Assembly: GCF_009914755.1 (NCBI RefSeq)
Contig: NC_060940.1
Direction: 5' to 3' (one strand)
DNA: 64,000 bases
From: the human T2T-CHM13v2.0 reference genome, Homo sapiens
This document shows, in pieces, positions 32,307-35,699 of the stretch (positions are counted from its first letter, which is position 1; the number at the start of each line of letters is the position of its first letter). The position numbers were made by a program, and so were the translations under genes. The notes below the pieces were generated by a model, which saw only the letters and a program-made list of their open reading frames with translations, was not told where the DNA came from and searched no databases.

Positions 32307-32612
32307 GGCCAGGCCCAGTGGCTCACACCTGTAATCCCCGCACTTCGGGAGGCTGAGGCAAGTGGATCACTTGAGGCCAGGAGTTCAAGACCAGCCTGGC
32401 CAACATGGCAAAACCCTGACTCTACCAAAAAATACAAAAGTTAGCTGGGTGTGGTGGTACACATCTGTAATCTCAGCTACTTGGGAGGCTGAGGCACAAG
32501 AATGGATTTAACCCAGAAAGAGGAGGTTGCATTGAGCCAAAACTGTGCTACTGCACTCCAGCCTGGGAGACAGAGTGAGACCCTGTCTCAAAATAATAAT
32601 AATAGTAAATAA
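32307..32612 (+). mobile_element. Alu (old S/J type)
   Basis: Full dimer; TSD aaatgtcatt(a/c)tgtttt. Confidence 0.93.
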
Positions 32613-32726
32613 ATCAAATGTCATTCTGTTTTTATGTGCTCCGATGAGTGACTGGATCCATACTCTTTTGTAGGTGCAAATTTAGTTCAGAACATCTTGG
32701 TTTTGCAATGCAATAAGGACTATTAA

Positions 32727-32942
<216 letters not shown>

Positions 32943-33025
32943 TAAAGTACCATCACTTAAGCATCACGTTTCTATCATATAATAACTAATCAGACTTCTA
33001 TTGTGAACATTTTTTTTGTTTGTTT

Positions 33026-33737
33026 CCACATACATGAGGTGCCTTTAGTAGTCAAATTCATAGACAGAAAGTAGAATGGTGGTTTCCAGGGACTGGGGAC
33101 AGGAAAGAATGGGAAGTTACAGTTTAATGAGTACAGAGATTTGGGAGATGAAAAGATGAGTTTTAGTGATGGTTACACAACAGTGTGAATGGACATAATG
33201 CAGTTGAACTGTAAGTACACTTAAATGGTAAAAATTTCAAATTTTATGTATCTTTTACCACAATTTTTTTTTTTTTTTTTTTGAGACAGAGTCTCGCTCT
33301 GTTGCTCAGGCTGGAGTGCAGTGGCGCGATGTTGGCTCACTGCAAGCTCTGCCTCCTGGATTCACGCCATTCTCCTGCCTCAGCCTCCTGCACAATTTTT
33401 TTAATTAAAAAAACTCTTTAACTATCTGAAGGCTACTATCATGACCCTTGGAATAATCTTCAGAGTAGACACATTTATTTCCTTCAACCATTCTTCATGT
33501 GACATGATTAAAGTCCATTCATACCTCCAGTCACTCACCTCTGAATGTTCTCCAGCCACTATACCCCTGTTTGAGACTGTAGACCTCAATATGACACTGA
33601 CCAGTTAAGAATGGAAAAGGCCTATCACTGCCCTCAATATGGCTACTAGATTTGGTAATTCAGCCAGACTTCCTACTAATTTATTACAACGCTGTTTATT
33701 TCTATAGAGCTAATTTTCTAGATAAAACTCCAAGTTC
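33026..33737. other. Putative SVA 3'-transduced segment: L1MB 3' end (33026-33263), truncated antisense AluY (33264-33390, TSD cacaatttttt), L3/CR1-like remnant (about 33480-33670)
   Basis: Lies between the SVA poly(A) and a second short poly(A), inside one TSD tattgtgaacattttt. Confidence 0.8.
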
Positions 33738-34471
33738 TTTTTTATTTATTTATTTATTTATTTATTTTAGTATTTATTGATCATTCTTGGGTGTTTCTCG
33801 GAGAGGGGGATTTGGCAGGGTCATAGGACAATAGTGGAGGGAAGGTCAGCAGATAAACATGTGAACAAAGGTCTCTGGTTTTCCTAGGCAGAGGGCCCTG
33901 CTGCCTTCCGCAGTGTTTGTGTCCCTGGGTACTTGAGATTAGGGAGTGGTGATGACTCTTAACGAGTATGCTGCCTTCAAGCATCTGTTTAACAAAGCAC
34001 ATCTTGCACCGCCCTTAATCCATTTAACCCTTAGTGGACACAGCACATGTTTCAGAGAGCACGGGGTTGGGGGTAAGGTTATAGATTAATAGCATCCCAA
34101 GGCAGAAGAATTTTTCTTAGTACAGAACAAAATGGAGTCTCCTATGTCTACTTCTTTCTACACAGACACAGTAACAATCTGATCTCTCTTTCTTTTCCCC
34201 ACATTTCCCCCTTTTCTATTCGACAAAACCGCCATCGTCATCATGGCCCGTTCTCAATGAGCTGTTGGGTACACCTCCCTGACGGGGTGGCGGCGGGGCA
34301 GAGGGGCTCCGCACTTCCCAGACGGGGCGGCTGGGCAGAGGTGCCCCCCACCTCCCAGACGGGGTGGCAGCTGGGCGGGGGCTGCCCCCCACCTCCCTCC
34401 CGGACGGGGCGGCTGGCCTGGCAGGGGCTGCCCCCACCTTCCGGACGGGGCGGCTGGCCGGGCGGGGGCTG
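33738..34471 (-). mobile_element. SVA (B/C-like), 5'-truncated within the VNTR
   Basis: Antisense poly(A) at 33738-33768, AATAAA at 33773-33778, SINE-R (gatcattcttgggtgtttctc...), GC-rich VNTR at about 34270-34471; older-subfamily variants ggttatagatta and aatggagtctcctatg. Confidence 0.96.
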
Positions 34472-34812
34472 TATTGTGAACATTTTTAAGTACGGTCTGA
34501 AATACTCTTTCAGTCAGTCAACAAATAAGTACTCCTATGAGGTACAAAGCTATGATGGCAAACTTTGTTAAGGTTCTAAGAGAAAGAAACCACTGGGCAT
34601 CTCAACTTGATTAGTTCATGAGTACATTCCAGCATTCCTGAATTTCTAATTGCTGTTACCCACATAGGAAAGCCTCAGTGCTAAACACAGTTATTAATAA
34701 TTCATGTGAATTTCCTACTGTTAGGCCTGGGATGAAATTAGAATGTCAATGGAATCATGTCATTTTAACCCCAAATATATTTCACCTGTAAATCTCTTTT
34801 TTTTTTCCAGTT

Positions 34813-34845
34813 TGTGTGTGTGTGTGTGTGTGTGTGTCTGTGTGC
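34813..34845. repeat. (TG)n microsatellite
   Basis: TG run. Confidence 0.95.
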
Positions 34846-35699
34846 ATTTACTTTAAACCAGTGGTGCATGCTGTTTTGCATATGCAATGCATTAACACCT
34901 TAAACCAGAATTTTAAAGTTCAAATATAGTTCCACTATATTTATGTTCCATATATACATATATATGTTTTATATATATATATTTTCTTTGATCAGGGAAT
35001 GAAATGAGCATATGTATTCATTTATAGATTGTTAACCTCTCTGAAAATAGTTAGATTAGCGACTAGTGCATTAAATATGTATGCTTTTAGTACTTCCAGA
35101 ACTTAAAATGGAAATAGATGAAATATTTGTTTACATTAACACCACGCCTTAAAATAAAATTTTATGCTAGGGGCACAACAGAATAAGAGGGAATCTGATA
35201 ATTCAGTGGATTTATGGAGACACAGAGCAGAAGTTGCTTAGTTAAAAAGCAAAGATGATACTGGCCTTAAAAATTATATATACATTGTAAATACTGTTTA
35301 CCATTATACTCACCATCTCTGATATGTATCACCTCTACTTCCTGTTCTACCAGTGAGCCTTACACAATCCCATGAAGATGATATAGGATATTTCATGGGA
35401 AGAAAAATTATGTGCAAAGAGATGAGGTTGTAAACTTCGGATGCATCCAGGAGAGTGTAACGATTTTTCATGGCTGTAGAGAAGTTGTTTTATACATCAC
35501 GTGTACCTTTCACTTCTTGCTCTGATCTTAACCCTGCAGGGACCCAGGCTGGCTTCCTCTGCCTTCCTTATTTCATTAGCCAAAACCCCTGCCTATTTGT
35601 ATGTTTTAAGTGAGGTCCCTACCAACTCTCTCCCTTAGACTTTCTTTCTCCCAGACTTCCTGTCATCATTTTAAGCACACAACATCATTCCACTTAGAG

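What the first reader, a model, noticed from the sequence alone, without database searches (positions are those of the whole stretch)
32999..34487. SVA-mediated 3' transduction of about 710 bp of foreign DNA, 120 nt downstream of CNTNAP4 exon ~15
Seen: no TSD flanks the SVA alone, because the sequence next to its poly(A) (aactccaagttc) does not recur at its 5' end. An exact 16-mer, TATTGTGAACATTTTT, occurs at 32999-33014 and again at 34472-34487. The second copy ends in TTTTT/AA, the canonical L1 endonuclease site. Read on the minus strand the insert is: partial VNTR, SINE-R, AATAAA, poly(A), about 710 nt of unrelated sequence (L3-like remnant, truncated AluY, L1MB end), variant signal ACTAAA (33044-33049), then 18 nt later a short A tail (33015-33025) and the TSD. 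The L1MB fragment stops abruptly at that tail. Established: SVAs read through their weak poly(A) signal and mobilise 3' flanks. Inference: 33015-34471 is one retrotransposition event, and 33026-33737 is a tag identifying the source SVA elsewhere in the genome. Repeat annotation would show it as four unrelated repeats.
Basis: partly seen in the sequence, partly recalled or inferred. Interest (0 to 1): 0.85.

Follow-up and report, generated by a model that had tools for sequence, protein, structure and literature searches.

The report
SVA insertion carrying chr5 flank
A truncated SVA retrotransposon in a CNTNAP4 intron dragged 712 bases of chromosome 5 DNA with it when it inserted, an ordinary and well-known kind of event, although the parent SVA is no longer at the chromosome 5 site in this genome.

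Summary
The exact 16-mer TATTGTGAACATTTTT occurs only at 32999-33014 and 34472-34487. It encloses a 1,457-bp insert. On the minus strand this reads: partial VNTR, SINE-R, AATAAA, A-rich tail, 712 nt of non-SVA DNA, ACTAAA, short A-rich tail.

The 712 nt has one other full-length copy in this genome, at G000:C5:57016424-57017137 (97%). Chr5 is the parental context. Its L1 continues across the point where the window copy is cut off (7 of 7 L1 copies on chr5, 0 of 7 in the window).

No SVA lies within 10 kb. Instead chr5 reads TTTTTT/AAAA exactly at the junction, which looks like the unfilled target site of a source SVA.

Best reading: one L1-mediated retrotransposition of a read-through SVA transcript whose source copy was never fixed or was lost. 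An RT template-switch chimera is the main rival.

Tag divergence of 2.4% suggests an age of several million years. No ape genome could be searched, so empty sites remain untested.

This is a routine example of a known mechanism, and interest is low.

The parts
32999..33014 (.). Target-site duplication, left copy (TATTGTGAACATTTTT)
   Evidence: Exact 16-mer. There are only two copies in the window (family D4).
33015..33025 (-). Terminal A-rich tail remnant of the whole insert (AAACAAACAAA on the minus strand). Its inner limit is uncertain by about 6 nt.
   Evidence: Read. The chr5 copy has GGTTATTGATT here, so there is no clear homology. BLAST stretched the match back to 33020.
33026..33737 (-). 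712-nt tag copied from chromosome 5 (3' transduced sequence in the sense of the SVA)
   Evidence: It matches G000:C5:57016424-57017137 at 97% over 1-712. There are 17 substitutions and 2 indels. The alignment ends are shown.
33044..33049 (-). ACTAAA hexamer, the only poly(A)-signal-like hexamer within 35 nt of the tag's 3' end
   Evidence: Hexamer scan. The hexamer is also present in the chr5 copy.
33026..33262 (+). Old L1 3'-end fragment. It resumes at 33391-33417 after the nested Alu and is cut off at 33026.
   Evidence: Matches at 73-75% to many loci. On chr5 the L1 homology spans the boundary in 7 of 7 L1 loci; in the window it spans in 0 of 7. The name L1 is recalled from the look of the sequence.
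33263..33390 (-). 5'-truncated Alu with its T19 tail, nested in the L1 end
   Evidence: Matches at 94-96% to many loci over query 239-365. T run at 33264-33282. Flanking 12-nt direct repeats CACAATTTTTTT at 33259-33270 and 33391-33402 (D8). The Alu is present in both the chr16 and chr5 copies.
33418..33737 (-). Single-copy part of the tag
   Evidence: Only 2 genomic matches: itself and chr5.
33738..33772 (-). Internal A-rich tail of the SVA ((AAAT)n-like). The first T6 and the A are shared with chr5.
   Evidence: TRF reports period 4 at 33741-33778.
33773..33778 (-). SVA poly(A) signal AATAAA
   Evidence: Hexamer scan.
33771..34260 (-). SINE-R module of the SVA
   Evidence: In each of two searches, 40 of 40 listed hits matched over essentially the full length (1-490, a few 3-490 or 1-488): 98-99% with this copy as query, 96-98% with locus L022. 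29 of 29 fetched copies adjoin VNTR-like DNA.
34261..34471 (-). Partial VNTR. The SVA is 5'-truncated here, directly against the right TSD.
   Evidence: TRF array at 34272-34471, period 37-41, about 4.5-4.9 copies. Repeat families D1-D3.
34472..34487 (.). Target-site duplication, right copy, followed by AA (TTTTT/AA)

Best explanation
One L1-driven, target-primed reverse transcription event put a single RNA into this CNTNAP4 intron, antisense to the gene. The RNA consisted of the 3' part of an SVA followed by 712 nt of its downstream genomic flank.

Proposed steps (inferred unless marked shown):
1. The RNA came from an SVA that once sat on chromosome 5, at the TTTTTT/AAAA site between G000:C5:57016417 and 57016418, sense on the C5 + strand.
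2. Transcription ran through the SVA's own AATAAA and its genomic A-rich tail.
3. It also passed several further AATAAA/ATTAAA hexamers.
4. The RNA was cleaved and polyadenylated about 18 nt after an ACTAAA, inside an antisense L1.
5. L1 endonuclease nicked chr16 at TTTTT/AA. Reverse transcription began on the new poly(A) tail and stopped inside the VNTR (5' truncation).
6. A 16-bp target-site duplication was formed.

Shown: the single insertion with its TSD, and the chr5 origin of the tag. Inferred: that an SVA once sat at the chr5 site. None is there in this assembly, so it must have been a polymorphic copy that was later lost or never fixed.
For: 1. An exact 16-bp repeat encloses the SVA and tag together, and none encloses the SVA alone. 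The chance of such a repeat is about 4e-6 over 2 kb.

2. The reconstructed target ends in TTTTT/AA. The T-rich tail lies on the side expected for a minus-strand insert.

3. The tag has exactly one other full-length copy, on C5, at 97%. Homology starts at 33026 and ends within the T6A at 33738-33744, which means exactly between the two tails.

4. Chr5 is the parent:
- L1 homology crosses the boundary in 7 of 7 L1 copies compared on chr5, and in 0 of 7 in the window.
- The chr5 copy is not followed by an A run. In the sense orientation it reads AATCAATAACCGTTGTCCTTTCGTG, a GU-rich stretch 11-24 nt past the cleavage point.

5. At the SVA-side junction chr5 reads TTTTTT/AAAA. TTTTAA occurs at 0.0012-0.002 per position. 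The 10-mer T6A4 occurs at 0.00006-0.0002 per position. An L1 endonuclease site at exactly this spot is expected for an unfilled SVA insertion site and not otherwise.

6. The SVA part belongs to a large family: 40 of 40 listed hits were full length at 98-99%, and 29 of 29 fetched copies adjoin a VNTR.

7. Literature:
- Read-through 3' transduction by SVA is well documented.
Against: - No SVA lies at or within 10 kb of the chr5 origin in this assembly. The source element itself is therefore unobserved.
- No sibling insertion sharing the tag was found. The single-copy part has only 2 genomic copies. Of 41 hits to an 18-mer of the junction (up to 1 mismatch), 10 were fetched. The 8 that are neither this locus nor chr5 show no SVA. 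The other 31 hits were not inspected. The hit count equals that of the reversed-pattern control.
- The transcript would have had to ignore AATAAA at 33700 and 33685, possibly 33479, and ATTAAA at 33405 and 33128, then use a weak ACTAAA.
- The terminal tail is only 11 nt and contains two C.
- The SINE-R differs from the commonest state of 30 related copies at only 2 of 492 columns. The tag has at least 8 window-lineage changes in 712 nt. This is a mild mismatch in apparent age (Fisher p 0.05-0.21).
- No outgroup genome could be searched, so neither empty site is confirmed.
Confidence: 0.78

Rival explanations
1. Template-switch chimera. During one target-primed reverse transcription event, L1 reverse transcriptase first copied a polyadenylated chr5 transcript of about 712 nt to its 5' end. 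It then jumped onto the poly(A) tail of a separate SVA RNA. No SVA ever sat on chr5.
For: - This model gives the same layout: TSD, tail, chr5 sequence, SVA tail, SVA, TSD.
- It directly explains why the chr5 origin has no SVA.
Against: - It needs an unspliced transcript made of antisense L1, an Alu fragment and unique DNA.
- That transcript must start exactly at a TTTTTT/AAAA endonuclease-type site on chr5. This is a coincidence of roughly 0.001-0.02, given the motif frequencies and a few nt of junction ambiguity.
- No extra bases are seen at the junction.
- Read-through transduction is far commonest in the cited surveys.
Confidence: 0.12
2. The source SVA was fixed on chr5 and later removed precisely, for example by recombination between its target-site duplications. 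This would restore a site that looks empty.
For: The chr5 site is seamless and shows the single-copy target. That is what a precise TSD-to-TSD deletion would leave. Such deletions are known from the literature but are rare (recalled, not read here).
Against: - On sequence alone this cannot be told from a never-fixed insertion.
- Precise removal is much rarer than loss of a polymorphic allele by drift.
- No SVA remnant was found in 10 kb.
Confidence: 0.05
3. Two unrelated events. The 712 nt was already in the intron and an SVA landed next to it. The 16-mer repeat would then be coincidence.
For: The L1 fragment is on the + strand, so a 5' truncation at 33026 could look natural by itself.
Against: - The SVA alone has no TSD.
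- The exact 16-mer has a chance of about 4e-6.
- The 712 nt is a 97% copy of chr5, and its limits coincide to the base with the SVA tail and with the terminal tail.
- Both chr16 flanks are single-copy in the genome.
Confidence: 0.02

Closest known systems
SVA-mediated 3' transduction (read-through of the SVA poly(A) signal). Catalogued genome-wide by Xing et al. 2006 (recalled; not held). Catalogued for CHM13 in the Hoyt et al. preprint 10.1101/2021.07.12.451456 (55 highest-confidence SVA 3' events; passages read).
   Same: - The SVA's own signal and tail are followed by unique flanking DNA, a second signal and a second tail.
- One TSD encloses everything.
- The insertion site is an L1 endonuclease site.
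- The event is interchromosomal.
- The tag length of 712 nt is within the reported range (9 bp to 4 kb; PMC12593883).
   Different: - No parent SVA is present at the origin in this assembly.
- Catalogues that require a parent element may therefore not list this event.
- Their tables could not be read here: bioRxiv supplements are closed and the PNAS paper is not held.
Transductions whose origin lacks an SVA (PMC12593883: the 16% of transduction-carrying polymorphic SVAs not traced to a source element)
   Same: The origin is inferred from the tag alone. The authors' own explanation is a source that was lost or is at low frequency.
   Different: - Those are young, polymorphic human insertions.
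- This one is old, judged by 2.4% tag divergence.
- A source still segregating in humans is therefore unlikely.
L1 3' transduction
   Same: The mechanism and hallmarks are the same, and the same L1 machinery acts.
   Different: The mobilised element is a non-autonomous SVA copied in trans, and it is 5'-truncated in its VNTR.
L1 RT template-switch chimeras (the SVA-processed pseudogene case in PMC12593883; U6-L1 type chimeras recalled)
   Same: Two RNA-derived pieces lie within one TSD, joined at a poly(A) tail.
   Different: - Here the 3' piece is not a known RNA gene or spliced mRNA.
- Its 5' limit falls on an endonuclease-type site in the parent locus.

Membership tests
SVA retrotransposon (copy of) | Contiguous VNTR, SINE-R, AATAAA and A-rich tail that are homologous to other genomic copies | tested here: met
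   - SINE-R query of 490 nt: 40 of 40 listed hits were full length at 98-99%.
- 29 of 29 fetched copies have VNTR-like DNA adjoining.
- TRF array with period 37-41.
- AATAAA at 33778-33773.
- The module names are recalled, and agree with the descriptions in PMC10681720 and PMC12593883.
SVA retrotransposon (copy of) | 5' (CCCTCT)n hexamer and Alu-like modules. These are features of full-length copies only. | tested here: not met
   - The copy begins inside the VNTR, directly against the right TSD, so it is 5'-truncated.
- Truncated copies are ordinary members: 199 of 218 truncated polymorphic SVAs are 5'-truncated (PMC12593883).
L1-mediated (TPRT) insertion | Target-site duplication, a terminal A tail, and a TTTT/A-type nick site | tested here: met
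   16-bp exact TSD, an 11-nt A-rich tail, and TTTTT/AA at the reconstructed target.
3' transduction | Non-element DNA lies between the element's own tail and a second terminal tail, inside one TSD, with no TSD around the element alone | tested here: met
3' transduction | The extra DNA maps to one other locus, where it is not followed by a poly(A) run | tested here: met
   One other full-length copy at 97%. Chr5 continues as L1 sequence, not as an A run.
3' transduction | An element of the same family lies immediately upstream of the origin. This is confirmatory: surveys still call events transductions without it. | tested here: not met
   - No SVA match in C5:57011000-57020999.
- The junction is seamless and reads TTTTTT/AAAA.
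- This lowers the claim that read-through is shown, and it leaves template switching open.
3' transduction | A poly(A) signal 10-35 nt upstream of the tag's 3' end | tested here: inconclusive
   Only the weak variant ACTAAA is present, with its last base 18 nt before the tail. That ACTAAA can serve as a signal is recalled, not tested.
3' transduction | An empty orthologous site in outgroup species that lacks the element and the tag together | not testable with these tools
   No primate genomes are held. Both chr16 flanks are single-copy in this genome, so there is no paralogous empty site either.

The most novel reading that the evidence does not exclude
No SVA ever sat on chromosome 5. The insert would then be a chimera made when L1 reverse transcriptase switched templates. 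It would have moved from a polyadenylated, unannotated chr5 transcript onto an SVA RNA within one integration event. That would make this an old, fixed example of SVA 'transduction' by template switching rather than by read-through.
Probability: 0.12. Interest if true: 0.35.

Novelty: new member of a known kind. Interest (0 to 1): 0.2.

Why it matters
It matters little beyond annotation.
- Four apparently unrelated repeat fragments plus an SVA in this intron are in fact one insertion of 1,457 bp.
- The tag records that an active SVA, or at least a retrotransposed transcript, once came from G000:C5:57016417/57016418. No SVA survives there.
- Such tags are the only way to trace extinct source elements.
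- The insert lies 122 nt downstream of a CNTNAP4 coding exon and places an antisense Alu and SVA in the pre-mRNA. The gene table supplied with the finding lists no exon inside it, and nothing here shows any effect on splicing.

Tried and rejected
- **Sibling search.** I looked for other insertions carrying the same tag.
  - The single-copy 320 nt has only 2 genomic copies.
  - An 18-mer across the SVA-side junction gave 3 exact hits: this locus, chr5, and one on C2.
  - The C2 hit is a 21-nt chance match with no SVA.
  - Hits with 1 mismatch (19 forward, 22 reverse in total) were as frequent as for the reversed control (17, 13).
  - Only 10 of the 41 hits were fetched.
- **Paralogous empty site on chr16.** Both flanks are unique in the genome, so this led nowhere.
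- **Papers.**
  - Xing 2006 and the PMC copy of Hoyt 2022 are not held.
  - The Hoyt preprint text was read, but its Table S13 is closed.
  - The search 'SVA' + 'CNTNAP4' gave 16 papers, and no title or abstract among the 15 listed concerns this insertion. I opened only one passage (PMC3123540), which is about an ERV promoter.
  - I therefore cannot say whether this event is already catalogued.
- **APOBEC-type editing of the first-strand cDNA.**
  - The window has T where chr5 has C at 9 sites, against 1 site the other way (binomial p 0.02).
  - After polarising with outgroup repeat copies, only 5 C>T against 1 G>A can be put on the window lineage, and 4 of the 5 are at CpG (p 0.22).
  - At least one of the nine sites (33072) is a chr5 change.
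  - I rejected the idea as unsupported.
- **Dating conflict between the tag and the SINE-R.** It is not significant.
- **SVA subfamily.** It was not assigned, because no reference subfamily sequences are available here.

Full report
**1. The observation.**
- The + strand of 32700-34800 was read.
- The 16-mer TATTGTGAACATTTTT lies at 32999-33014 and 34472-34487.
- These are the only two matches in the 64-kb window, even with two mismatches allowed.
- With none allowed, 0 of 100 dinucleotide-preserving shuffles produced a match.
- From the window's base composition, the chance of this 16-mer at a given place is 2.2e-9, or about 4e-6 over a 2-kb neighbourhood.
- The bases just outside the two copies differ, so the repeat is exactly 16 nt.
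- The second copy is followed by AA. The reconstructed target therefore reads …CTTC TATTGTGAACATTTTT/AAGTACGG…, an L1-endonuclease-type TTTTT/AA site.

**2. Anatomy between the repeats, read on the minus strand.**
- A G+C-rich tandem array, period 37-41, at 34272-34471. It abuts the right repeat.
- About 490 nt (33771-34260) that match other genomic loci over essentially their full length. All 40 of 40 listed hits did so in each of two searches: 98-99% with this copy as query, and 96-98% with locus L022 as query.
- 29 of 29 such copies that I fetched have VNTR-like DNA on the same side.
- AATAAA at 33778-33773.
- A degenerate (AAAT)n tail down to 33738.
- 712 nt of other DNA (33737-33026).
- ACTAAA at 33049-33044, and 18 nt later AAACAAACAAA (33025-33015).
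- Calling the modules VNTR and SINE-R of an SVA rests on my recall of the family's layout. It agrees with the descriptions in PMC10681720 and PMC12593883.
- The SVA is 5'-truncated within its VNTR.
- The bases next to the SVA's own tail do not recur at its 5' end, so the SVA alone has no target-site duplication.

**3. Where the 712 nt comes from.**
- A search of the window's own assembly found one other full-length copy, G000:C5:57016424-57017137 on the opposite strand, at 97%.
- All other listed hits cover only the Alu-like part (94-96%) or the L1-like part (73-75%).
- The 320-nt single-copy part (33418-33737) has just two copies in the genome: this one and chr5.
- A base-by-base alignment shows homology beginning at 33026 and ending in the T6A at 33738-33744. 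Those are exactly the two tails.
- The copies differ by 17 substitutions and two indels of 2 and 4 nt.

**4. Which copy is the parent.**
- I compared both loci with seven other copies of the same L1 3' region.
- On chr5 the L1 homology crosses the boundary in 7 of 7, in one case for more than 1 kb.
- In the window it starts at the boundary in all seven and crosses in none.
- Chr5 is therefore the original context, and the chr16 copy was cut out of it.
- The nested, truncated Alu with its 12-nt flanking repeats (D8) is in both copies, so it predates the transfer.
- In the sense orientation, the chr5 sequence past the cut is not an A run. It contains a GU-rich stretch 11-24 nt downstream, which fits a cleavage and polyadenylation site.

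**5. The failed prediction.**
- BLAST of window 32500-35000 against C5:57011000-57020999 gave the tag match and Alu-type matches only. Nothing matched from the SINE-R or VNTR.
- At the junction chr5 reads …AACTCCAAGTTCTTTTTT/AAAACGTTTT… with nothing inserted.
- That is a perfect L1 endonuclease site, in the orientation needed for an SVA whose sense strand reads into the tag.
- TTTTAA occurs at 0.0012-0.002 per position in these sequences. The 10-mer T6A4 occurs at 0.00006-0.0002.
- I read the chr5 site as the unfilled allele of the source insertion. The source SVA was a polymorphic copy that produced this offspring and was then lost, or never fixed, in the lineage leading to this genome.
- PMC12593883 (passages) reports the same situation for 16% of transduction-carrying polymorphic SVAs and gives the same explanation.
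- The same paper also reports one template-switch case. That is the main rival here (about 0.12). It would explain the missing SVA, but it needs an unannotated transcript that starts exactly on an endonuclease-type site.
- Precise deletion of a once-fixed source is a further minor rival (about 0.05).

**6. Weak points.**
- In the SVA sense, the transcript passed AATAAA at 33700 and 33685, possibly 33479 (where chr5 has GATAAA), and ATTAAA at 33405 and 33128. It then ended after a weak ACTAAA.
- The terminal tail is short and impure. Its inner edge is uncertain by about 6 nt, because chr5 reads TTGATT where the window reads TTGTTT.
- No sibling insertions were found.
- Both chr16 flanks are single-copy, and no primate genomes are held. 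Neither empty site could be confirmed by comparison.

**7. Age.**
- Overall divergence is 17 substitutions in 706 aligned sites, or 2.4% (95% CI 1.4-3.9%).
- Nine of the substitutions are not CpG-linked, giving 1.3% (0.6-2.5%).
- Outgroup repeat copies place at least 8 changes on the chr16 lineage and at least 5 on chr5. Four are unpolarised.
- Against recalled human-ape divergences, the insertion dates to somewhere around the human-chimpanzee to human-gorilla splits. This is my inference.
- The SINE-R differs from the commonest state of 30 related copies at only 2 of 492 columns, the fewest of all 30.
- When another copy was used as the query, the window's copy was its best non-self hit.
- This looks younger than the tag, but the difference is not significant (p 0.05-0.21).
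- An excess of window-T over chr5-C differences (9 to 1) suggested cDNA editing. It did not survive polarisation.

**8. Verdict.**
- The insert is a single retrotransposition of an SVA 3' part plus a 712-nt piece of chromosome 5.
- The mechanism is most likely ordinary SVA 3' transduction (0.78), with the source element no longer present.
- This is a well-known kind of event. The Hoyt et al. preprint counts 55 highest-confidence SVA 3' transductions in this very assembly.
- I could not read the tables that might list this one, and my one literature search for it found nothing relevant.
- Interest is low.

Noticed in passing
window 33771-34260: This SVA's SINE-R is the least diverged of the 30 related copies compared, differing at 2 of 492 columns against 4-11 for the others. 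It is also the best non-self hit when another copy (L022) is the query. The tag it carries is 2.4% diverged from its parent. The contrast is not statistically significant and remains unexplained.
   Followed up: partly
window 33026-33737 versus L011 (C5:57016424-57017137): Among the 17 substitutions, the window has T where chr5 has C at 9 sites, against 1 site the other way, and 6 of the 9 follow a C. This could hint at cytidine deamination of the first-strand cDNA. However, 4 are at CpG, one is a chr5 change, and 4 cannot be polarised.
   Followed up: partly
window 33259-33402: A 5'-truncated Alu with a T19 tail sits in the end of an older L1, flanked by a 12-nt direct repeat CACAATTTTTTT. 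The same nested insertion is present at the chr5 parent locus, so it predates the transfer.
   Followed up: yes
window 33474-33479: The window copy has AATAAA on the minus strand where the chr5 parent has GATAAA. The direction of the change is unknown. If it happened on chr16, the hexamer was not present in the source transcript.
   Followed up: no
L047 (G000:C23:47549735-47550224) and L048 (G000:C23:47427523-47428012): Two SVA copies about 122 kb apart on C23 have identical sequence beside their tails in the 45 nt shown. They are probably one SVA copied by a segmental duplication rather than two insertions.
   Followed up: no
L015-L053 (SVA copies): Most of the related SVA copies end, in the sense orientation, with CTAAAAAAATTAAAAAAAAAA-like tails. 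The shared AATT interruption suggests a common source lineage with a patterned tail. The window's copy has (AAAT)n instead.
   Followed up: no
window 32929-32960: A small 15-nt tandem duplication (2.1 copies) lies in the intron between the exon and the insertion site.
   Followed up: no
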